Assembly (NCBI RefSeq): GCF_009914755.1
Contig: NC_060925.1
DNA length: 64,000 nt
From: the human T2T-CHM13v2.0 reference genome, Homo sapiens
Strand: one strand, 5' to 3'
Of the stretch, positions 1 to 20,736 are shown one piece after another. Position 1 is the first letter of the stretch; every line of letters starts with the position of its first letter. Below the pieces are notes generated by a model. It saw only the letters and a program-made list of their open reading frames with translations, ran no database searches and was not told the DNA's origin. A program made the translations under genes and the position numbers.

Positions 1-578
1 ATCAGCACTCTGTAAAAACGCACCAATTAGCACTCTGTGTCTAGTTAAAGGATTGTAAATGCACCAATCAGCACTCTGTAAAATGGACCAATCAGCAGGA
101 TGTGGGCGGGGCCAAATAAGGGAATAAAAGCTGGCCACCCAAGCCAGCAGTGGCAACCAGCTTGGGTCCCCTTCCATGCTGTGGAAGCTTTGTTCTTTCG
201 CTCTTCACAATAAATCTTGCTGCTGCTCACTCTGGGTTTGCACTACCTTTATGAGTTGTAACACTCACGGCAAGGGTCTATGGCTTCATTCCTGAGGTCA
301 GCGAGACCACGAACCCACTGGGAGGAACAAACAATTCTGGACGCGCCACGTTTAAGAGCTGTAACACTCACTGCGAAGGTCTGTGGCTTCACTCCTGAAG
401 TCAGCGAGACCACGAACCCACCGGAAGGAAGAAACTCCGGACACATCTGAACATCTGAAGGAATAAACTCTGGACAAACCATCTTTAAGAGCTGTAACAC
501 TCACCGCAAGGGTCCACAGCTTCATTCTTGAAGTCAGCGAGACCAGGAACCCACCGGAAAGAATAAATTCCGGACACA
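1..578 (+). mobile_element. LTR12-family (HERV9) LTR, 3' portion
   Basis: Tandem CCAAT(C/T)AGCA repeats, GC box GGGCGGGG, AATAAAAGC TATA, three ~105-bp U5 repeats (gtaacactcac...gaagtcagcgagaccacgaaccc), ends ...ccggacaca; no PBS follows. Confidence 0.9.
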
Positions 579-896
579 ACATTTCTTTTTTCTTTGAGAC
601 AGGGTCTCAGTGGCACAATCATAGCTCACTGCAGCCTCAACCTCCTGGGCTCAAGAGATCCTCCTGCCTCAGTCTCCTGAGTAGCTGGCACACCGCCATG
701 CCCTGCCAATTTTTTTTGTAGAGACAGGGGTCTCACTGTGCTGCCTACACTGGTCTCGAGCTCCTGGTCTCAAGCAGTCCTCCCTCCTGGTCGTCCCAAA
801 GTGCTGGGATTATAGGTGTGAGCCACCGTGCCTGGCCTCTTTTCTTCTTTTTTCCCTCCACATGTGTCTTATTTTTTTTATTTTTTTATTTTTTGA

Positions 897-1136
<240 letters not shown>

Positions 1137-1139
1137 TGA

Positions 1140-1472
<333 letters not shown>

Positions 1473-1545
1473 TGAGCCTGGCCTCTATATAAGCCCTAAG
1501 TTCTAACCGCTCCTCTGAGTTACTCATCACTGAATTTCCGTTGCA

Positions 1546-2885
<1,340 letters not shown>

Positions 2886-3169
2886 TAATTTTTGTATTTT
2901 TAGTAGAGATGGGGTTTTACCATGTTGGCCAGGCTGGTCTTGAACTCCTGACCTCAAATGATTCATCCACCTGGGCCTCCCAAAGCACTGGGATTACAAA
3001 CATGAGCTACCGCATCTAGCCTCCGAGTAATTTTTATATTTTTAGTAGAGACAGAGTTTCACCATATTGGCCAGGCTGGTGTTGAACTTCTGGCCTCAAA
3101 GTGATCCACCCTCATCAGCCTCCCACAGTGTTGGGATTACAGGCGTGAGCCACTCTGACCAGCCAAAGA

Positions 3170-3787
<618 letters not shown>

Positions 3788-3922
3788 TAATACATTTTTG
3801 TTGAATGGATGAAGTGCTTCTCCATAAGGGATGTTTGGGTTCAATTTTCTGGCTCCCACAAACCCACCTTCTGAGTCTCAGACCCTCTCCTTGTCCATAC
3901 CTGTCCATGCGGAGATAGGCGG

Positions 3923-5313
<1,391 letters not shown>

Positions 5314-5843
5314 AGGTGGTGATCTTCAGGAACCCACCTGCACCTGTGAGATTCTGAAGACGTGGACCCAGCCTTCACAGGCATCCAAGTTACCTTCCCC
5401 ATGAGGACTTGTTTTACAGATCACAAAAGACATCTGCACTTTGTATGGCTCCAGCAGGATCTCTCTGATCTGTGAGGATTAATGAGCCAGCCACATCTCT
5501 CCCCAGCTTCCTGGACCAATGGCGCAAACCTAGTTCAGAAACCCAGCAAGTTGCTTGAGGCATTAGCCAGGCATCCGTGGTATGCAAGTTTTGGCACTGG
5601 TTTGCTGTTTGGATGTTTTTCTCCTTCAGGCGGAAATTTACAAAGCACTCATGCTCCAACTACCATGGCAGAGAGAGGAGGTGAAGCAAATTGTAAAAAC
5701 TTCAACCTCAGTATTGAGTTTCTCCTTGACTTGTGTTGAAGCCAATGATGGCAAGGGATGTGGATAACCTGGATGTTTTCTCTTGGGATCCACCCTCTCA
5801 CAGGTGTTCCTCTGAGCACTTTGCAGGATGAGAAGTTGAATAG

Positions 5844-6062
<219 letters not shown>

Positions 6063-6501
6063 TAGAGACGGAGTTTTGCCATGTTGTCCAGGCTGGTCTT
6101 CAACTCCTGGGCTCAAGCAATCTGTCTACTTCGGCCTTACAAAGTGGGTGCTGATTTCTCTGCAGCTTATGGACACACCATAAGCTGGGGGCACCCATGG
6201 AAGTGCTTTAGCTTGTAATCTCCATCAACATCTCCCACAAGACACCTCCCCAAACTTGATCTGGTTTGGGGAGTCACTGCTGTCTGGAGGAAAACATCTC
6301 TAATTTAGCCCTCGAGATTACACATATTAAGTTCAACTAAGTACGAACTCAAGGTATATTAAATACAATTTCCAAACACACCAGCCATCATGAGTGAGAA
6401 TCAGCAGAAACTATGAATGACAGACTTAGGCCATCTCAGGTTTTTGGAGTGATCAGATACAGATTATTTTATTAATTAATTAATTAATTAATTATTTTTG
6501 A

Positions 6502-6645
<144 letters not shown>

Positions 6646-6784
6646 TGAGATGGGGTTTTGCCATGTTAGCCAGGCTGGTCTCGAACCCCTGACCTCAGAT
6701 GATCCACCTGCCTTGGCCTTCCAAAGTGCTGGGGTTGCAGGCATGAGCCATCCCGCCTGGCCAGATACAGATTATTAAGCATAG

Positions 6785-7111
<327 letters not shown>

Positions 7112-7749
7112 TAAAGTGCTTGGGATTACAGGCGTGAGCCACTGCGCCCCGCCCTGGGTGTCTGTTTCGATCTTGCTGCTCCTCTGAGCCTCCTATACAA
7201 AGATTCTGGCGCTACTGCACGCCCTGTGTTTGTGTCCTCTATGTTAAAGTTCTTTTTCCTGGCTAATGTGGTCCAGACATGTTGGAAGGGATTCTAAAGT
7301 AACAATCCTGTGACCACGTGACTGTGAGAAGAATTCTTTTCTAAAGAAAAGGATCTTCATCACATACCGACCCATCTCTTTCACTACCTTTAATACCACC
7401 TCAGATATCTCTCTTTTCATTTCCTGCAGCCCTTATTGCTTCCGTGGTGTTAGGCCCCTTGGCATTTTGTCATATTTGTTTTTTTCCATTTTGTAGCTGA
7501 CTGTCTCACCAGTCACTCCTGTCTGGAGGAAAACATTCCCAGTTTAGCCCTTGAGATTACACTTATTAAGTTCAACAAAGCACAGCCTCATGATACATAA
7601 TTTCCAAACACACAAGGAAGCCAGCCATGATGAATGAGAAACTATGAACAACAGACTTAGGCCTCTTTAGGATTTTGGAGAAATCAGATACAGATTATTA
7701 AATAACTACTCATGGATTTTTTTTTGGGTGGGGCGGTGCTGCTTTTTGA

Positions 7750-7992
<243 letters not shown>

Positions 7993-8304
7993 TGATCCAT
8001 GAGCCTCAGCCTCCCAAAGTGCTGGGATTACTGGCATGAGCCACTGTGCCCGGCCTTGATTTTTTTTTTTTTTTTTTTTTTTGAGACAGAGTCTTGCTCT
8101 GTCACCCAGGCTGGAGTGCAGTGGCAAAATCTCGGCTCACTGCAAGCTCCGCCTCCCGGGGTTCACGCCTTTCTCCTGCCTCAGCCTCCCAAGTAGCTGG
8201 GACTACAGGCGCCCGCCACTACGCCCGGCTAATTTTTTGTATTTTTAGTAGAGATGGGGTTTCACTGTGTTAGCCAGGATGGTCTCGATCTCCTGACCTC
8301 GTGA

Positions 8305-8680
<376 letters not shown>

Positions 8681-8879
8681 CGATTTCTATTTTTAATAGA
8701 GATGGGGTCTTGCTATTTTGCCCAGGCTGGTCTTCAACTCCCGAGCTCAGGCAATCCTTCTGCCTTGGCCTCCCAAAGTGCTGGGATTACAGGTGTGAGC
8801 CACTGTGCCCAGCCAAAAATTTTTAAAAATGAGTTTAAAAATGAGCAGTAAGAAGAGACTTCTAAAAATGAGCATGCTT

Positions 8880-9280
8880 TCTCTGATGCAGAACCAGGGC
8901 TGAGCTCACACTAAAGGCCTTTCCACACTTACCACATTCATAAGCTTTCTCACCATGGGTTCTTCGATGCCTAAAAAGGCTTGTACTCCAAACAAAGCTT
9001 TGCCCATATTTGTCACAGTTTTGAGGTCTCCTTTTAAAGGCGTTCTGATCTTTTTCATTTAATTTATCCCCAAATTCACAGAATTCTCTGCCTTCAGAAT
9101 CCTGGAGAACATTCTCTCTGAGACTGCTAGACTCTTCTGTCAATGGTTCAATTTTTGCTGTAATTCCCTCCTCTGAAGCTGGCTTTCCAATCTTGGTCTT
9201 GTTTTCACCATCTCGACTTGGTCCCTGGACCGCTGTGAAGCCTCACACCCGGCGAACCTGCCATCGCCCTGTCCGCTCTC
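8880..9280 (-). pseudogene. Processed fragment of a C2H2 zinc-finger mRNA (ZNF271/Zfp35-like)
   Basis: Minus strand translates [53 protein letters not shown]...[46 protein letters not shown]; preceded by a 69-nt CpG-rich exon-like piece (9212-9280) joined at gag|ATGGTG. Confidence 0.75.
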
Positions 9281-10376
9281 ACGGCACAATCAGGAGCTGT
9301 GCTATACGCTCTCCTGGCTCTGCTTTCCAGGGAACAGAAGTAGATATAACAATTTGAATTTCTGCATTGTAATCTGAATCAATGACTCCTGTCTGTACTT
9401 GCACTCCTTTTAAATTTAAACTAGACCTACCTAGTTTAAGTAGTAATCCTACTGTCCCCACTGGCATCATCTGATTGCAGACAGCAACATTCTTTAACAG
9501 TCCCATTACAAAAGGAGAACCTGGTCCATATTGATTAATAGCTTGCTTAAATTCTTTGAGTAATTTAAAAGAAAAAGGCTCAAATGTAGCTATAATATTT
9601 CCCTGTTGATCTGGGGGATATATTCTAACAGGGAACTGCCAAGCCTCTATATCACCCTCTCTTCTAGCTTGCTGAATTCCTGTCTGAATAGAACTAAGAG
9701 CAGTCATTCGAGGCGCTGCTTGAACAGTCACTGGGGCAACTACTTTTTGCCCAGTGTCCTCCGGAAAAGAAAGATCTGGAGGTCAGGCCACTTTCTGTCT
9801 TCAAAATAAGGAGGGGATGCAGGAGGGTAGGGATGAACCTCTTCCTCCTTTGCTGCTTTAGCTTTAGCTGGCAAACAAACCTGCTCTGTCACCTCTTCTG
9901 TTACTTCATTATACTTTCCTTCCTCGTCATCATCAGTGTGAAAAGCTTCCAAGGACCCTGATGCTTCTGAGCTCCTCTTCTTACTCACCACGGGGATTGC
10001 TTAAGAGTACTCGGGTGTCCTCCAGTTTAGTTTCACGTTCTCCAACTGTCGCTCCGGCGACCCTTTGACCCGGATGTGAGCCCCCATGTTGGGCACCGCT
10101 TGCCGAGACCAGCTCAGTCGCGGAGACTCTAACCCGGCGGCACTAGAGGAATTAAAGACACACACACAGAAATATAGAGTGTGGAGTGGGAGATCAGGGG
10201 ACTCACAGCCTTCAGAGCTTGACTCACATGTTTATTGACAGCAAGCCAGTGATAAGCATTATTTCTATAGATTATAGATTAACTAAAAGTATTCCCTACA
10301 GGAAACAAAGGGATGGGCCAAGACAAAGGGATGGGCTCTGGCTAGTTATCACACAAACAATAGCATGAGTGATCTG
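9281..10376 (-). mobile_element. HERV-K(HML-3)/HERVK9 fragment: partial MER9 LTR (10101-10350), Lys PBS, deleted gag fused to dUTPase
   Basis: LTR end ...gagctggtctcggca; PBS-like CGGTGCCCAACATGGGGGC at 10080-10098; Gag peptides EVTEEVTEQVCLPAK and AWQFPV..QYGPGSPF; dUTPase motifs GRSSLNLKG, TGVIDSDY, GERIAQLL. Confidence 0.88.
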
Positions 10377-10454
10377 GTCTGAAATTCCAGGGCTCAAACA
10401 GTCTTCACGCTCTGGCCTCCTAAAGTGCTGGGATTACAGATGGGAGCCACTGCA

Positions 10455-11212
<758 letters not shown>

Positions 11213-11213
11213 T

Positions 11214-11381
11214 TAATAATCACATCACAAGACGTCTTACACTCATGAACTGTCCCTACATTAGGCCTAAAAACAGATGCAATCCCCGGACGCCTAAACC
11301 AAACCACATTCACCGCCACACGACCAGGAGTATACTACGGTCAATGGTCAGAAATCTGCAGAGCTAGCCACAGTTTTATAC
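11214..11381 (+). pseudogene. NUMT: nuclear copy of part of mitochondrial CO2
   Basis: In the vertebrate mitochondrial code reads [54 protein letters not shown], versus COX2 ...DVLHSWAVP...YYGQCSEICGANHSFM. Confidence 0.95.
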
Positions 11382-11389
11382 AACCATCT

Positions 11390-12140
<751 letters not shown>

Positions 12141-13641
12141 AAGGAAGGAAATGGGCGATTTCCTCATCAATACTCTACTCCGGTACATACAAAATACTGA
12201 ATGTGTTTCAACAATTAAAACAATGAGGTTGGCCAAGTGTGGTGGGGGATGGAGGGGGGTGGGGTGCCGCGGGGATCACTTTCACTCAGGAGATCGAGAC
12301 CAACCTGGGCAACACAGCAAAATCCCATCTCTACAAAAAATACAGAACCTAGCTGGGTGGGCTTGGTGGCATGCTTGTAGTCCCAGCTACTCTGGAGGCT
12401 GAGGTGGGAGGATCACTTGAGCCCAGGAGGCAGAGGTTGCAGTGAGCTGAGATCACACCACTGCACTACAGCCTGGACGACAGAGCCAGACCCTGTCTCA
12501 AAACAAAACAAAAAACCAATGAGGTTGATCTACAGTGTATGTACATCGTGGAAAAGTGTCCATAATACAGAAAGTGAAAAAATCAAACCTCTGAACCATG
12601 TGTGTAATAGTCCACCTGCGTGTGTGCGTGACTGTGCATCTGGAGTCTGCAGAAGGGCATGACCACGTGGTTAACAGGTCAACAGCGGCTCCCTCTGCAG
12701 AGGGAGCTGGAGGGAAGACAGGAAATGGAGGGATTTGCTTTTGCTTCTCTACACATTGCTTGGATATTTTATTTATTCCTTCATTTTATTTCATTTCATT
12801 TTGCTTTGTTTTTAACAAAAGGCATGTATTCCTTGTAGTGTACAATTTCCGGAGCCCACACCTGTTTGCCTGTAGCTAGGACTCAGATCAGATACATTAA
12901 AGGATGGCCAGGCAAGAGGCAGTGACATCCTGTGTTCCCTGGGGCAGTTCCTCCCTCCTCCGCCTAAGAACCACAATCTAGGTAGACCCCCTAGAGGGGC
13001 TGGGAGGATCCACTCTTCTTTCCCTTTTTTAAGGGGAAGGGTTTGTTTTGGGAGGAGTTCTTTTGTTAGTCAGAGTGGCCCAAGGGCTCCAGAGGTAAAT
13101 ACAAGCACTCCACTCTCTTCAGTCTCTTTTTACATTGCCTTCCCCAGTGGGGTGCTAAGGGCTGGCCAGGGCATGCTTCCACAAGTTCCTTTGATTATTT
13201 AGAAAAAGGCTTACATAATTCAACCCGAAGGACTCTGAGAGGTGAATCGAGTGTGCAGGAATCAACTGGACAGTGGCCGAACAGGAAGTTCAAAACTTGT
13301 GAATAGCGTTGTTTTGATTAATTAACCATCTCAGTCTCCCAGGGAGGGGTCTCTAAAGACTGGGCAGTAAAAAAAGCAACAACAACAACAACAAAAAAAC
13401 AACAAAAACCTCCCCAAACTGTGCAGTAATGTCTTTGCCTGCCCTGGAGGGCCCCTTGGGTAGGTTTTATATGAGCTCGGGTGTCTTGAGTGAGTCCACC
13501 ATCTGGGAGGCAGGCAGTGCCAACTCAGGGGACCGCAGTGGATGGGAGACTGTGTCAGGGGTGACCCCCAGGGGACCCTGGTCCACTGGTTGGCCAACTT
13601 TGTTGTTGTCATCTCTGAGGTTGGGCTGATTGAAAGTGGCC

Positions 13642-15065
<1,424 letters not shown>

Positions 15066-15801
15066 TGATTGCTGTGTGTGTGTGTGTGTGTTTGTGCGGG
15101 GGTGGGTGGGTGTGGGTGTGTTTTCTTTTCTTTAAAAAGTTTATAAAATTTGAGTCAGGGTCTTGCTCTGTTGCCTGGGCTGTAGTGCAGTGGCATAATC
15201 ATGGCTCATGGCAGCCTCAAACTCTTGGCCTCAAGCAATCCTCCCATCAGCCTCCCCAAATCCTGGAATTTAACAGGTTGGCCAAGAGCAGTGAGCCATT
15301 CATTGCACCTGACCGTGTGCGTGTTTGCTAAAAAGTGCAGATAACTTACTCCCTGGTTTGTTTTCTTAGTGAGCTCATATTGTCTACCTTCTAAAGACCA
15401 AAGCGTCAGGACTGCAGAGCCCCATTCTGGCTTTGGCAAACACGTGGAGTGAGACTGGTTTCCACCTGAGAAATAACCCTTCTGGTTTCCCTCCGAGCAT
15501 GCTCCTCTCCTGCGCGTTACCTACGTGGTAGGGAGATGGTGTTGCACACTGCAGAGGCTCACCCCATAGAGGGAGAACTTCCTAAACTGAGCTGAGTCCT
15601 GGTGTCCCGTGAAACACTCTACAGAGGGTGCCTGGGGGTGTCTTTCTCGGAAAAGACTCCCCCAGGTAGTGAGGAAGGCAGGACCTGGCAGAGGGAGAAC
15701 CCAGTGTTGCTGGAACTGAGGCCGTTTCTGCAATGAAGCTCTGGTCCCAAATTGAGACATGAGGTCTGGGCCTTTGCATCTCTGTTTCTTTTCACTTTTA
15801 A

Positions 15802-16131
<330 letters not shown>

Positions 16132-17559
16132 TGAAAATTAAAATGACATCCAGGGCTCACTGGATTTGCTCATACAAAGGCAGGGGCATCTAGACCACAG
16201 AGAGTAATCGGTGCTGGTTCAATGGCCTTGAACACTACTCATTTTATCAATGAAAAATCATTCTTAGCTCTCATTGTGCTAATTAACAAACCATCTGGTG
16301 TGGATTGGAGATAGAGCTAGAGTGGCTTTTGTTGAGTCTTTCAAATGTAGGTTCTAATCACCCCTGGAATTTCGCGCTCCCAATTCCGCAGCGCTGACTG
16401 CCCCTAGAAAGCAGGCTGAAGCTAAGTGACACGTACAGTTGGTGCTGAGGGTTTTTGAAGTAAATTACAGGCACGCTTTTCAAGCTCTGAGCTCTTGAGA
16501 AGACCACTGAGCTCAAAGTTAGTCCAACAAATAATGTTCATCATACACAGCATCTTCTGTTTAAGAAGGCAGGAAATTGGCCGGGTGCGGTGGCTCACAC
16601 CTATAATCCTAGGACTTTGAGAGGCCGAGGCTGGCAGATCACTTGAAGTCAGCAGTTCGAGAGACCAGCCCACATGGCGAAACCCTATTTCTACTAAAAA
16701 TACAAAAAATTAGCCAGGCATGATGGCGTGTGCCTATAGTCTCAGCTACTCGGGAGGCTGAGGTTGAGAATTGCTTGAACCCAGGAGGCGGATGTTGCAG
16801 TGAGCCCAGATCATGCCACTGCACTCCAGCCTGGGCGACAGAGCGAGACTGTATCAAAACAATCAAGCAAAAATGGTTGTTGTCAACACAGTGGGTAACA
16901 TCTGAACCAAACAAGCCAGGAAATTGAGCACTTGGTTTTAGAAAACTTTTCATCCAAAAAGGGTTAACAGATTTATAATGTGAGTTTAAAGGGGTCATCT
17001 CGAGTTTTCAAGAACATTCATTTATGCCAAGCAGCTCCTTCTCCACTGATATCAAAGATATTTTACTGTAGAGGGCACCAAATACACCCCTTCATTATTT
17101 TCTCCTTTTAAAGAAAACAGGACAAATTAGTGACCTGGAAGGTTTGGATATAAACACATCAGAGAAATCATTGTTTTGAGAGTTCTTTTCAGCTTAATTA
17201 ATTCACATTGGCTGCTCAAATTCATTTTAGGTCTGGAGGCGATTTTCAAACAAAATGTTATGACAGAGATCATAACAAAGATTTGGAGCAAAGATTTCTG
17301 TTTGCTGAGCTGTCACTCAAGCTAAACAGATAGCAACAGGGAATCTTTAGGCAAATTAACTTTCCCCTGAATGGGTTCTTTTATCCTGTCCATCTGCATT
17401 CATTCCCATGGGTACTTCGAGACCGAGCTAACAAGTCAGATATACATAATAAAGAAAATTGCTCAAGGGAAAAAAAAATCAACTGTTCATTTGGGAAAAT
17501 GTGGTGCTAGTCTAAATACAATTCTCTATTAATTTCAAGGGGTCTAAAAATCTATCACC

Positions 17560-18128
17560 AGTTCTTCAAAAAGTTAAACAGACTTATCCTGTGGCCCAGC
17601 AATTACATTCCTAGGTATGCACCCCGAAGAACTGAAAACAGATAGTCAAACAAATACTTGCACACAAATGTTCATCGCAGCACTATTCTCAATAGCCAAA
17701 AAGTGGAAATTACTCAAAATTCCATCAACAGATGAATGGAGAAACAAAATGTGGTATATACGTATACAACAGAATATCATCCAGCCGTGAAAACAAATTA
17801 ACTACTGATGTGTGATACAACGTAGATGAACCTCAGAAACATGACCTTAAGTGTTAAAAGCCAGACATAAAGATCATGATTCCGCTTATGTGAAATATAT
17901 GAATGATCCCCTTTATACGAAATATTCAGAATAGGTGAATTTATCAAGACAGAAAGCAGATCAGTGGTTGTCAAGGGATGGGGAGGGGGGAATGAGGAAT
18001 GACCGCTAATGGGTACGGGGTTTTCTTTCGGGGTGATGAAAATGTTTTGGAACAAGATAGAGGGGCTGGTACGCAGCATCTGTGAAGGTACTAAATGCCA
18101 CTGAAGTGTACTTTTTAAAAACGTTAAT
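17560..18128 (+). mobile_element. Old L1M (L1MB-like) 3' end
   Basis: cccagcaattacattcctaggtat, aatgttcatcgcagcactattc, ggggtgatgaaaatgttttggaac. Confidence 0.8.
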
Positions 18129-18308
18129 GTGGTGAGGTGCGGTGGCTCACGCCTGTAATCCCAGCATTTTGGGTGGCTGAGGTGAGTGGATCACCTGAGG
18201 TCAGGAGTTTGAGACCAGCCTGGCCAACATGGTGACACTCCGTCTCTACTAAAAATAGAAAAAAATTAGCCAAGTGTGGTGGCGGGTGCCTGTAATCCCA
18301 GCTACTCA

Positions 18309-18410
<102 letters not shown>

Positions 18411-18454
18411 TCAAAAAAAAAAAAAAAAGTTAATGTGTCCAGCACAGTGGCTCA

Positions 18455-18694
<240 letters not shown>

Positions 18695-18715
18695 TTACAG
18701 AAGGAGACTATGTAT

Positions 18716-18760
<45 letters not shown>

Positions 18761-18819
18761 GGGCGCGGTGGCTCACGCTTGTAATCCCAGCGCTTTGGGA
18801 GGCCGAGGCGGGCAGATCA

Positions 18820-19074
<255 letters not shown>

Positions 19075-19698
19075 TCACAGCACTTTAGGAGGCCGAGACG
19101 GGAGGATTGCTTGAGCCCAGTAGTTCAAGATCAGCCTGGGCAACATAGCAAGACCCTGTCTCTATAAAATAGGAAAAAAAAGAGGTTAATGTTGTATTAT
19201 ATTACTTTAATTTTACCCCAATATGAGTTTGTAAACAAATCAAGTTCTCTGTAAACAAGTATTTGATGGTCTGGAAAATGGGATTGCCTCAATATCCAAA
19301 CAGCCGTTTCTGGGCAGCTTCCTGACCATCCGGTAGGTTTCTTGGTCCAGCCCTGAGTCTCCTTGGCAATGCATCAGGGAGACACCAGGCTCATTCCTCT
19401 TTCCTCGTGGCTTCCATATCTTTCCATCCCTCAGCCCTCCGCAGAACCAGCTGTTTGCGGTCACACCGTGGATCTTGTATGAAGCAAAAACAAAAAAAAC
19501 AGGGCCAGGCGCGGTGGCTCACGCCTGTAATCCCAGCACGTTGGGAGGCTGAGGTGGGCAGATCACTTGAGCTCAGGAATTCAAGACCAGCCTGACCAAC
19601 ATGGTGAAACCCCATCTCTACTAAAAATACAAACATTAGCCAGACGATGGCTCATGCCTGTAATTCCAGCACTTTGAGAGGCCAAGGTGGGTGGATCA

Positions 19699-19980
<282 letters not shown>

Positions 19981-20736
19981 TCATGAGCGTACAATAAATG
20001 CTTCAGCTGGAAAAACTGCATATTTACAGGACTGCCTTCAATATGGTGGTGGTTCTCCTGACTGCAGGGGATGCGGCAGCAAGTAATAAACCCTTCAAAA
20101 GTTGCTTTGTTTTTGCAAGCAAGACATTGAGAAGCAGAGAAAATGTAGACAGTTGAAGATAAACAAAAACACAGCACTGGCTGCTTCTTTGCGTTTTCCA
20201 GAATATTTCAGTGGAGCAGCTGTTACGGGAGGAATATAAAAATCTAAAGTAAGGCTGGGAGCAGTGGCTCACTACTGTAATCTCAACACTTTGGGAGGCT
20301 GAGGCAGGAGGATTGCTTGAGGTCAGGAGTTCAAGACTAGCCTGGGCAATATAGCAAGACTCTGTCTCTACCAAAGCCAGAAAAAAAAAATCTAAAATAA
20401 AGTATTCTTAGGGACACCTCTCAAGAATTGTAACTAAGAGGTGGGCAAGGTGGTTCCTGCCTGTTGTTTCAGCTACTGAGTTTCAGGCTGCAGCGTGCTG
20501 GGATAGCACTTGTGAATAGCCACTGCTCTCCAGTCTCGGCAACATAGCAAGACCCTGTCTTTAAAAAAAAAAACAGTTCTGAAAGAAAAATGAGCAACCT
20601 TGAACCCTTTGGCCTCAGACAGTACAGGGCTTGCTCACCTAGAAAGTTAAAATAAAGAAAGTGGGCCGGACATGGTGGCTCACGCCTGTAATCCCAGCAC
20701 TTTGGGAGGCCGAGGCGGGTGGATCACCTGAGGTCA

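What the first reader, a model, noticed from the sequence alone, without database searches (positions are those of the whole stretch)
8880..10376. Chimeric retrocopy: HERV-K(HML-3) LTR-gag-dUTPase RNA fused to a spliced ZNF271-like cellular mRNA
Seen: the minus strand reads partial MER9 LTR, Lys PBS, gag, dUTPase (...GERIAQLLIVP), then switches abruptly at 9281/9280 to a 69-nt CpG-rich non-viral segment joined with no intron to a zinc-finger exon ([11 protein letters not shown]...[16 protein letters not shown]). Knowledge from memory: the peptide closely resembles the N-terminus of mouse Zfp35 / human ZNF271. Inference: a template switch between a retroviral RNA and a spliced host mRNA, i.e. 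a host-gene capture fossil. No polyA, 3'LTR or TSD survives at the ZNF end, which implies a later or target-site deletion.
Basis: partly seen in the sequence, partly recalled or inferred. Interest (0 to 1): 0.8.

Follow-up and report, generated by a model that had tools for sequence, protein, structure and literature searches.

The report
Endogenous retrovirus fused to ZNF271 cDNA
A broken ancient retrovirus copy on human chromosome 1 is joined, base for base, to the very start of an intron-free copy of a chromosome-18 zinc-finger gene transcript, a rare fossil that probably records a reverse transcriptase hopping between a host and a viral RNA.

Summary
Read on the minus strand, 10350-9281 is the 3' half of a 506-bp LTR, a primer-binding site, gag and a dUTPase fragment of a betaretroviral HERV. 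At 9281/9280 it switches to a cDNA of a chr18 gene. Window 9279-9212 matches chr18:35,481,655-722 at 97%, and a GT donor follows there. Window 9211-8916 matches chr18:35,497,300-596 at 94%, and an AG acceptor precedes there. The two chr18 exons lie 15.6 kb apart, so the source was spliced mRNA. The junction is unique in the genome.

New details:
- One orphan G (9280) sits between the two parts, as expected from a copied mRNA cap.
- The gag-dUTPase fusion is a ~960-nt deletion shared by at least 22 other genomic copies.
- 10376-10352 is an inverted LTR snippet.
- The retrocopy keeps 42 nt and 4 nt that the human source gene has since lost.

The mechanism is not settled, because both ends are truncated and there is no poly(A), TSD, 3' LTR or L1 endonuclease-like site.
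- Template switch by a retroviral reverse transcriptase ("LTR-mediated retroposition", three human cases in print): about 0.5.
- L1-made processed pseudogene nested in a provirus, followed by deletions: about 0.3.

This is a new member of a known kind, of moderate interest.

The parts
10374..10465 (-). Upstream flank. 5' ~92 nt of an old AluJ-like element, cut off at its 3' side. It is preceded by an L1-EN-like site with half-TSD AAAAACTGGAG, whose partner is absent from the window.
   Evidence: Sequence. EN-site scan gave 1 mismatch. No second copy of the half-TSD was found.
10352..10376 (+). 25-nt inverted copy of the LTR segment that normally lies about 24 nt upstream of the point where the direct LTR begins. 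It shares 3 nt (CAG) with the end of the Alu piece.
   Evidence: 25/25 match in reverse orientation to chr8 LTR L037:800-824. Sequences compared.
10101..10350 (-). It carries a TATA-like ctataat (10277-10271) and AATAAA (10236-10231).
   Evidence: Alignment to both LTRs of the chr4 sibling. Genome matches.
10081..10098 (-). Primer-binding site directly after the LTR end. The tRNA-Lys assignment is recalled, not tested.
   Evidence: Sequence. Alignment with the chr4 5' LTR and leader.
9464..10080 (-). Leader with the retroviral splice donor (9989|9988), then gag remnant up to the N-terminal 42 profile positions of the capsid (Gag_p24).
   Evidence: Pfam. Matches to siblings.
9281..9466 (-). dUTPase fragment (Pfam profile 42-102 of 129). 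It is joined to gag by a ~960-nt deletion with a 4-nt overlap (9466-9463) that is shared with other copies. The viral sequence ends at 9281.
   Evidence: Pfam. The chr19 and chr8 copies carry ~960 nt more. 22 of 46 non-self rows cross the break. Sibling alignment.
9280..9280 (-). Orphan G at the junction, matching neither parent. All 13 HERV siblings have A here and chr18 has T. It may be cap-derived.
9212..9279 (-). Copy of the first exon of the chr18 zinc-finger gene (68 nt, 66/68 identical, 6 of 7 CpGs kept).
8871..9211 (-). Copy of the start of the large zinc-finger exon, joined to exon 1 without the 15.6-kb intron. It includes 8915-8874, which is 42 nt now missing from the human source gene, and a GAGA that the source gene has lost.
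   Evidence: Orthologue alignment.
8815..8870 (-). 56-nt spacer, unique in the genome. It is neither viral nor from the chr18 gene, so it is probably older local DNA. It ends in the TT|AAAA target site of the next Alu.
7740..8814 (-). Cluster of four nested or adjacent Alu elements downstream. It is not part of the chimera.
   Evidence: Sequence. Alu matches. Hub repeat mask.

Best explanation
This is a fossil of reverse-transcriptase template switching, most likely inside a particle of the endogenous betaretrovirus ('LTR-mediated retroposition').

Proposed sequence of events:
1. A capped, spliced mRNA of the chr18 zinc-finger gene (ZNF271-like; first exon joined directly to the large finger exon) was copied 3' to 5'.
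2. At the cap the enzyme added one C, which reads as G in the sense strand.
3. The enzyme then continued on viral RNA inside the dUTPase region and copied it through gag, the PBS and the LTR.
4. The viral partner was an already defective variant with a ~960-nt gag-pro deletion.
5. The integrated chimera later lost, or never had, everything 3' of the second zinc finger and the first ~240 nt of the 5' LTR.

Shown here: the exact junction, the spliced origin, uniqueness in the genome, and the absence of L1 hallmarks.

Inferred: which enzyme acted, the order of events, and the later deletions.

Today the piece is non-coding. There are stop codons at and after the junction and no ATG. According to the hub annotation, the junction lies inside an exon of lncRNA LINC03153.
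For: 1. Spliced origin. Two chr18 exons 15.6 kb apart are joined exactly at GT/AG borders.

2. The host part starts where an mRNA would start. In chr18 the first matched base is an A preceded by T (pyrimidine-purine initiator) inside CpG-rich DNA. One orphan G separates it from the virus. An extra G at cDNA 5' ends is a known signature of copying the cap (recalled knowledge).

3. No L1 endonuclease-like site lies 6-25 nt upstream of the junction. The best site has 3 mismatches to TT|AAAA, as at 54% of 20,000 random positions. A control Alu in the same window scores 0 and the flanking AluJ scores 1.

4. The retrocopy is 5'-complete and 3'-truncated, with no poly(A) and no TSD. This is the pattern described for LTR-mediated retrocopies and the opposite of the usual L1 5' truncation (PMC5131818, passages read).

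5. Both parts have the same orientation.

6. The viral part is an ordinary member of its subfamily. Its terminal branch is 0.050, against 0.032-0.069 for 11 siblings. There is no closer source copy in the genome, as expected for a virus-derived rather than a locus-derived template.

7. Dating is compatible with one event. Of 14 substitutions over 364 nt between retrocopy and source, at least 7 are on the retrocopy side (1.9-3.0%). This compares with ~3.9% per LTR in the chr4 sibling.
Against: - Only one virus-host junction exists. No viral sequence or 3' LTR follows the ZNF part anywhere in window 1-20000. No further ZNF271 piece exists in the whole window. The defining 'flanked on both sides by a discontinuous LTR element' cannot be shown.
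- There is no microsimilarity at the junction (0 nt plus 1 orphan nt). Tan et al. found microsimilarity at 25 of 29 Drosophila junctions.
- Both ends need extra deletions or an aberrant integration.
- The inverted 25-nt LTR snippet at the 5' end has the topology of L1 twin priming. That would point to L1 rather than to a retroviral integrase.
- The transcription start site of the chr18 gene was not checked against any annotation or CAGE data.
- L1-made processed pseudogenes are thousands of times more common in the human genome than LTR-mediated ones. Tan et al. kept 3 of 518 LTR-flanked human retrocopies.
Confidence: 0.5

Rival explanations
1. Two independent, ordinary events. A defective HML-3-type provirus integrated here. 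Later L1 inserted a full-length processed pseudogene of the ZNF271-like mRNA into its dUTPase region in the same orientation. Subsequent deletions then removed the 3' part of the pseudogene with its poly(A), the second TSD copy, the rest of the provirus and its 3' LTR, and separately the 5' ~240 nt of the 5' LTR.
For: - L1 retroposition is the dominant source of human retrocopies (PMC5131818).
- A 5'-complete cDNA with an extra G is also typical of full-length L1-mediated copies (recalled).
- Deletion has clearly acted at this locus. The flanking AluJ lacks its 3' part and its second TSD, and the LTR is truncated.
- By my own rough estimate, not from any call, chance nesting of about one retrocopy in HML-3 internal sequence is expected genome-wide.
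- The retrocopy-side divergence (1.9-3.0%) is, if anything, lower than the viral terminal branch (5.0%).
Against: - No EN-like target site lies within 25 nt upstream of the junction (3 mismatches).
- There is no poly(A), no TSD and no resumption of viral sequence.
- It needs at least three separate events, with two deletion breakpoints falling within 1.5 kb around the junction.
- For a multi-kb mRNA, 5'-complete L1 copies are a minority (recalled).
Confidence: 0.3
2. An L1-made chimeric retrocopy (Buzdin-type). L1 ORF2p copied the ZNF271-like mRNA from its poly(A) to the cap. It then switched to a HERV-containing transcript that included part of U3, such as a read-through RNA. The insertion was completed by twin priming, which left the 25-nt inverted LTR snippet. 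The 3' end with its poly(A) was lost later.
For: - The arrangement of the inverted snippet (inverted a..b, a gap of ~24 nt, then direct c..) and the 3-nt CAG overlap with the flank are what twin priming produces (twin-priming model recalled, 5'-inverted class mentioned in the search listing of PMC2912911).
- The switch at the cap with an orphan G fits any reverse transcriptase.
- A good EN-like site exists at the AluJ flank, but that site belongs to the Alu itself.
Against: - There is no poly(A) and no TSD for the composite.
- The flank at the 5' end is the middle of an Alu, not an A-rich EN site.
- It needs a viral RNA that carries U3 in front of R-U5, which genomic viral RNA does not.
- No closer source provirus exists in the genome.
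Confidence: 0.12
3. A purely DNA-level accident. Either a deletion or other rearrangement fused a provirus to a nearby, separately inserted retrocopy, or a stray cDNA fragment was patched into a double-strand break by end joining.
For: - Both outer borders look like end-joining scars. These are a truncated Alu, an inverted 25-nt snippet, 0-3 nt overlaps, and unique DNA directly after the ZNF part.
- No integration hallmark of any kind survives.
Against: A random deletion breakpoint would have to fall exactly, within 1 nt, on the first base of the mRNA copy.

The break-repair version still needs a pre-formed chimeric cDNA, that is, a template switch.
Confidence: 0.08

Closest known systems
LTR-mediated retroposition (Tan et al. 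2016, Genome Res, PMC5131818). Human examples are the FAM8A1 retrocopies inside HERVK14 (first described by Jamain et al. 2001, cited there) and one MER4-flanked retrocopy.
   Same: An intron-free partial mRNA copy is fused in sense orientation to internal ERV sequence. There is no poly(A), no TSD and no L1 target site. The mRNA is truncated at its 3' side. The chimera is transcribed as part of a lincRNA, as noted for two of their three human cases in Suppl. Table 8.
   Different: - Only the 5' virus-host junction survives; there is no ERV sequence on the other side.
- There is no microsimilarity, only one orphan nucleotide.
- The switch is at the very 5' end of the mRNA.
- The ERV family differs (HML-3-type rather than HERVK14/MER4).
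- This locus is not in their list (one supplementary file could not be searched).
L1-mediated processed pseudogene nested in an older repeat
   Same: It is intronless, may have a 5'-complete end with an extra G, and lies inside a repeat.
   Different: Poly(A), TSD and a TT|AAAA-like target are all absent. The 3' end is truncated rather than the 5' end.
L1 template-switch chimeric retrogenes (Buzdin-type, e.g. U6-L1, U6-mRNA; PMC4476161 seen in the search listing only)
   Same: Two unrelated RNAs are fused head-to-tail in the same orientation, with the 3' partner complete at its 5' end.
   Different: - The 5' partner here is a retroviral sequence including part of U3, not a small nuclear RNA.
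- There is no poly(A) or TSD around the composite.
Acutely transforming (transducing) retroviruses and Ty1 retrosequences in yeast (recalled; cited within PMC5131818)
   Same: Host mRNA sequence is joined to viral sequence by non-homologous RT template switching in a particle.
   Different: - There is no second junction and no 3' LTR.
- There are no sibling copies, so there is no sign that the chimera ever replicated.
- The captured piece is a 5' UTR plus two decayed zinc fingers and has no reading-frame fusion.

Membership tests
LTR-mediated retrocopy (Tan et al. 2016) | Retrocopy lacks the introns of its parental gene | tested here: met
   Exons 15.6 kb apart on chr18 are joined exactly at GT/AG borders.
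LTR-mediated retrocopy (Tan et al. 2016) | Flanked on both sides by one discontinuous LTR element whose internal part is replaced | tested here: not met
   ERV sequence lies only on the 5' side. No HML-3 match occurs elsewhere in window 1-20000. The spacer after the ZNF part is unique, non-viral DNA. Their Suppl. Table 8 note allows one-sided cases.
LTR-mediated retrocopy (Tan et al. 2016) | Microsimilarity at the fusion point | tested here: not met
   There are 0 shared nt, and one orphan G instead. De novo nucleotides were reported at 3 of 29 Drosophila junctions.
LTR-mediated retrocopy (Tan et al. 2016) | No L1 hallmarks (poly(A), TSD, EN site) | tested here: met
   None was found. This is weak, because the 3' end of the copy is missing.
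L1-mediated processed pseudogene | 3' poly(A) tail and flanking TSD | tested here: not met
   The ZNF part stops in the second finger at ~8871 and abuts unique DNA. There is no A-run and no repeat of the pre-junction sequence.
L1-mediated processed pseudogene | TT|AAAA-like target at the start of the TSD | tested here: not met
   The best site has 3 mismatches for TSD lengths 6-25. Control Alus score 0 and 1.
L1 chimeric retrogene (template switch by ORF2p) | Composite bounded by one TSD pair and ending in poly(A) | tested here: not met
   There is no TSD for either possible 5' border (10376 or 10465) and no poly(A).
HERV-K(HML-3) / MER9 | Betaretroviral gene order, with dUTPase in the pro region after gag | tested here: met
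   Gag_p24 and dUTPase Pfam hits lie in one frame. Fuller copies carry ~960 nt between them.
HERV-K(HML-3) / MER9 | Assignment to the HERVK9-int/MER9 consensus families; tRNA-Lys PBS | not testable with these tools
No repeat library is on hand. The equivalence HERVK9 = HML3 and MER9 = HML3 LTR, with ~150 copies, comes from PMC4724089 (passages). The LTR is 506 bp and there are many genomic copies. The PBS-tRNA match was not tested.
ZNF271 (mouse Zfp35 orthologue) as source gene | Source locus is the annotated ZNF271P gene on chr18 | tested here: inconclusive
   The locus is fixed by coordinates. Orthologue fragments P0004, P0005 and P0011 are 69-71% identical over the whole alignment, including the unique N-terminal part. 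The best Atlas cluster for P0004 is auto-named 'Zinc finger protein 271' at score 0.98. No annotation of chr18 was available.

The most novel reading that the evidence does not exclude
The locus is a fourth human case, and the first involving an HML-3-type virus, of a host mRNA captured inside a retroviral particle. The switch happened at the cap of a full-length spliced mRNA and left the cap-templated G, an in-vivo counterpart of the 'template-switching at the cap' used in cDNA library chemistry.

The captured piece also preserves the state of ZNF271 before the human gene lost 4 nt and 42 nt. The virus-host junction is now part of a lncRNA exon.
Probability: 0.5. Interest if true: 0.55.

Novelty: new member of a known kind. 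Interest (0 to 1): 0.45.

Why it matters
Host-gene capture by endogenous retroviruses is very rare in the human record. One systematic screen reports three cases.

- **Mechanism.** Each additional junction shows how reverse transcriptases recombine unrelated RNAs. This one sits exactly at an mRNA 5' end with a single orphan G and no microhomology.
- **Screening gap.** Screens restricted to protein-coding parent genes would miss chimeras whose parent gene is now classed as a pseudogene.
- **History of ZNF271.** The retrocopy dates and preserves an older state of the gene. It keeps an intact reading frame and a zinc finger that the human gene has lost.
- **Expression.** The viral leader and the chimeric junction supply exons of the annotated lncRNA LINC03153 and overlap annotated enhancer elements.

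If primate orthologues instead show a nested L1 insertion, the locus is ordinary.

Tried and rejected
**Junction as a splice site.** I considered that the junction was a splice of a HERV donor to the chr18 exon. I rejected this because the only nearby acceptor (cctag|) is 2 nt off, and the HERV side has no donor at the right base.

**Origin of the 56-nt spacer after the ZNF part.**
- I looked for it in the chr18 gene (18 kb in two loci) and in three sibling proviruses with short-word BLAST. Only chance matches of 15 nt or less appeared.
- I also searched the whole genome and found only the self match.

**More viral or ZNF271 sequence.** I looked for a 3' LTR, for further HML-3 pieces in window 1-20000, and for further ZNF271 pieces in the whole window. 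None was found.

**TSDs.** The half-TSD of the flanking AluJ (AAAACTGGAG) has no partner. There were 6 matches with up to 1 mismatch in the window, against 9.1 expected by chance, and none is in a suitable place.

**Flanks as parts of one older repeat.**
- The upstream flank is unique apart from a 126-nt L1 3' end piece.
- The downstream flank is unique apart from a 76% local paralogue.

**Dating.** The retrocopy-side divergence (7-11 of 364 nt) does not differ significantly from the LTR-derived age of a sibling. Dating therefore does not separate the models.

**Literature.**
- 0 papers for 'HML-3' + 'ZNF271'.
- 0 papers for 'LINC03153'.
- 0 papers for 'ZNF271' + 'retrocopy'.
- 0 papers for 'retroviral vector particles' / 'natural processed pseudogenes' / 'cDNA genes'.
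- One irrelevant hit for 'ZNF271P' + 'chr18'.

**Naming the source gene.** Two word-index protein searches returned only unnamed fragments as close relatives.

**Supplements I could not see.** Vargiu et al. Table S1 (.xls; it may list this locus) could not be read. One supplementary file of Tan et al. could not be searched.

Full report
**What is there.** All coordinates are window coordinates read on the minus strand. The stretch 10465-8815 reads in this order:
1. 10465-10374: the first ~92 nt of an old AluJ-like element.
2. 10376-10352: a 25-nt piece that is the reverse complement of an LTR segment.
3. 10350-10101: the 3' ~270 nt of a retroviral LTR, with a TATA-like ctataat at 10277-10271 and AATAAA at 10236-10231.
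4. 10098-10081: a primer-binding site.
5. A leader with the retroviral splice donor at 9989|9988.
6. gag sequence running into the first ~42 profile positions of the capsid domain.
7. A dUTPase fragment (profile positions 42-102 of 129), directly in the same frame and ending at 9281.
8. 9280: one G.
9. 9279-9212: 68 nt of CpG-rich sequence.
10. 9211-~8871: the N-terminal coding part of a C2H2 zinc-finger gene with two fingers.
11. 8870-8815: 56 nt of unique DNA.
12. From 8814: a cluster of Alu elements.

The domains come from Pfam: Gag_p24 E 3.6e-10, dUTPase E 7.2e-11, zf-C2H2 E 1.6e-7.

**The host part is a spliced cDNA of a chr18 gene.** I searched the window's own genome with 9280-8880.
- Besides the self match it gave C18:35,497,300-35,497,596 (94%, E 6.6e-129, query 65-365).
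- It also gave C18:35,481,655-35,481,722 (97%, E 6e-23, query 2-69).
- All other hits were short zinc-finger similarities of 73-89%.
- In chr18 the upstream piece is followed by gtaagg, and the downstream piece is preceded by ttgttccag.
- The window therefore carries the exact exon-exon join of two exons 15.6 kb apart (alignments).

On the gene's identity:
- Three orthologue fragments (P0004 from a mustelid, P0005, P0011) align at 69-71% identity over the whole alignment, including the non-finger N-terminal part.
- The Atlas's nearest cluster for P0004 is auto-named 'Zinc finger protein 271' (score 0.98, 168 shared features). This is a lead, not proof.

**The retrocopy is older in state than its source.**
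- After GGAAAGGCC the window has 42 nt (8915-8874) encoding [14 protein letters not shown]. The human chr18 gene lacks them.
- The window also has a GAGA that chr18 lacks.
- All three orthologues carry ...[17 protein letters not shown]..., and their reading frame is that of the window copy. The two losses therefore happened in the source gene after the copy was made.
- The chr18 finger array also has an in-frame stop and a frameshift further on.
- I polarised the 14 substitutions in 364 shared nt against the orthologues. At least 7 are on the retrocopy side, at least 3 on the chr18 side, and 4 are undecided.

**The viral part.** A genome search with 10400-9281 returned 46 non-self rows, with 40 of 1,385 candidates scored.
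- 22 rows cross window position ~9463 without interruption.
- 15 rows stop there.
- In the chr19 and chr8 copies, ~960 nt lie between the two halves, with a 4-nt overlap at 9466-9463.
- The in-frame gag-dUTPase fusion is therefore a deletion of a whole subfamily and is not part of the event at this locus.
- A chr4 member is a 6.06-kb provirus with two 506-bp LTRs that are 92.3% alike. The deleted form therefore spread as a provirus.
- In a tree of the window copy and 11 siblings over ~1.07 kb, the phylogeny is star-like. The window's terminal branch (0.050) lies inside the siblings' range of 0.032-0.069. No sibling is a markedly closer source; pairwise differences are 8.8-11.1%.
- The names HML-3/MER9 could not be tested because no repeat library was available. 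Vargiu et al. equate HERVK9 with HML3 and MER9 with its LTR, at ~150 copies (PMC4724089, passages).

**The junction.**
- All 13 aligned siblings read ...ctgattgtgcc(g/a)t|atgtggaaatgggg.
- chr18 reads ...cccagattcct|agagcggacaggg.
- The window reads ...ctgattgtgccgt-g-agagcggacaggg.
- There is thus no shared microhomology, and one base (G at 9280) matches neither parent.
- In chr18 the first copied base is an A preceded by a T, which is a pyrimidine-purine initiator, inside CpG-rich sequence.
- This fits the true 5' end of a capped mRNA. The extra G is the known footprint of a reverse transcriptase copying the cap (recalled knowledge).
- I could not check the annotated transcription start.
- The 80-mer across the junction is unique. 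Of 40 scored hits, only the self hit spans both halves. The chimera left no siblings.
- A TGA is created at the junction and a second one lies 36 nt on. The 126-codon ZNF frame has no ATG, so nothing here is coding.

**The outer borders.**

5' side:
- The LTR lacks its first ~240 nt. The part that remains begins ~90 nt upstream of the TATA-like box, so some U3 is present.
- Just before it, 10376-10352 matches the chr8 LTR at L037:800-824 25/25 in reverse orientation. That segment normally lies ~24 nt upstream of where the direct LTR begins.
- This gives the order flank | inverted a..b | gap | direct c.., with a 3-nt CAG overlap to the truncated Alu.
- That is the topology of L1 twin priming. 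It is also reachable by end joining.
- The AluJ piece has a good L1 target (TC|AAAAACTGGAG, 1 mismatch), but its 3' part and second TSD are gone. A deletion has therefore acted here.

3' side:
- The ZNF copy stops in the linker after the second finger.
- The next 56 nt match neither the chr18 gene nor three sibling proviruses, and they are unique in the genome.
- No 3' LTR or further HML-3 sequence occurs in window 1-20000. No further ZNF271 piece occurs in the whole window.
- There is no poly(A) and no TSD.

**Mechanism.** Three families of explanation remain.

(A) A template switch by a reverse transcriptase at the cap of the host mRNA onto viral RNA.
- This could have happened in a retroviral particle (LTR-mediated retroposition) or by L1 ORF2p.

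(B) An L1-made processed pseudogene nested in a provirus and later trimmed.

(C) DNA-level fusion.
- This is unlikely, because a random breakpoint would have to hit the first base of the cDNA.

Between A and B the human sequence gives only soft evidence.
- The 6-25 nt before the junction contain no TT|AAAA-like site. The best has 3 mismatches, as at 54% of 20,000 random positions.
- As controls, a nested Alu scores 0 and the AluJ scores 1.
- The two parts share orientation.
- The copy is 5'-complete and 3'-truncated without poly(A). Tan et al. describe this pattern for LTR-mediated retrocopies and contrast it with L1's 5' truncation (PMC5131818; passages and section 6 read).

Against A:
- Only one junction survives.
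- There is no microsimilarity, which was present at 25 of 29 Drosophila junctions.
- L1 retroposition is overwhelmingly more common. Tan et al. retained 3 of 518 LTR-flanked human retrocopies.
- The twin-priming-like snippet hints at L1 involvement.

Dating is compatible with a single event but cannot exclude a later insertion.

My odds are:
- 0.50 retroviral template switch
- 0.12 L1 template-switch chimera
- 0.30 nested L1 pseudogene
- 0.08 other

**Comparison with what is known.** The closest described kind is LTR-mediated retroposition.
- Supplementary Table 8 of Tan et al. lists the human cases: two retrocopies of ENSG00000137414 (FAM8A1) in HERVK14 on chr6 and chr11, and one of ENSG00000176788 in MER4 on chr13.
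- None is on chr1 and none comes from ZNF271 (one supplementary file could not be searched).
- Full-text searches for HML-3 + ZNF271, LINC03153, and ZNF271 + retrocopy found nothing.
- If reading A is right, this is a new member of a known kind. It would be distinguished by the HML-3-type partner, the switch at the cap with an orphan G, and the loss of the 3' half.
- If reading B is right, the locus is ordinary.

**Present-day use (from the hub annotation, checked against the sequence).**
- LINC03153 exon 10142-9989 starts at an AG in U5 and ends at the retroviral splice donor.
- Exon 9322-8933 starts at an AG in the dUTPase fragment, contains the virus-host junction, and ends at a GTAAGT formed by zinc-finger codons.
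- RefSeq enhancer features cover 9604-10605.
- Six of the seven CpGs of the copied first exon survive. The window's U5 keeps more CpGs than the chr4 sibling. This fits a germline-unmethylated regulatory region (inference).

Noticed in passing
L002/L028 (G000:C18:35497300 onward) compared with window 8871-9211: The human chr18 source gene has lost 4 nt (a frameshift) and 42 nt (14 codons of a zinc finger) that the chr1 retrocopy and three non-primate orthologue fragments still have. It also carries an in-frame stop later in the finger array. The retrocopy is a snapshot from before these lesions.
   Followed up: partly
window 9463-9466; loci L014-L024, L035, L037: A subfamily of the HML-3-type virus has a ~960-nt deletion that fuses the capsid N-terminus in frame to the middle of dUTPase. 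22 of 46 genome rows cross the break and 15 stop at it. One member on chr4 is a 6.06-kb provirus with both LTRs, so the defective form spread.
   Followed up: partly
window 10352-10376: A 25-nt inverted LTR snippet lies between a truncated AluJ and the truncated LTR. Its topology resembles L1 twin priming. Its origin is unexplained.
   Followed up: partly
window 10690-11150: A full Alu and a 126-nt L1 3'-end fragment sit side by side. The same ~10-nt flank (GTGTATTGGG) appears three times: before the Alu, between the two elements, and after the L1 piece. This suggests repeated use of one target site.
   Followed up: no
window 7511-7699 and 6272-6468: An otherwise unique downstream flank has a 76%-identical local paralogue about 1.2 kb away.
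   Followed up: no
window 8933-9322 and 9989-10142: Exons of lncRNA LINC03153 reuse the retroviral major splice donor, an AG in U5, an AG in the dUTPase fragment, and a GTAAGT made by zinc-finger codons. One exon contains the virus-host junction.
   Followed up: partly
window 7740-8814: Four Alus are nested or abutting. One is flanked by a perfect 14-nt TSD at a TT|AAAA site inside the A-rich middle of an older AluJ-like element. That older element's own 3' part and TSD partner are missing.
   Followed up: no
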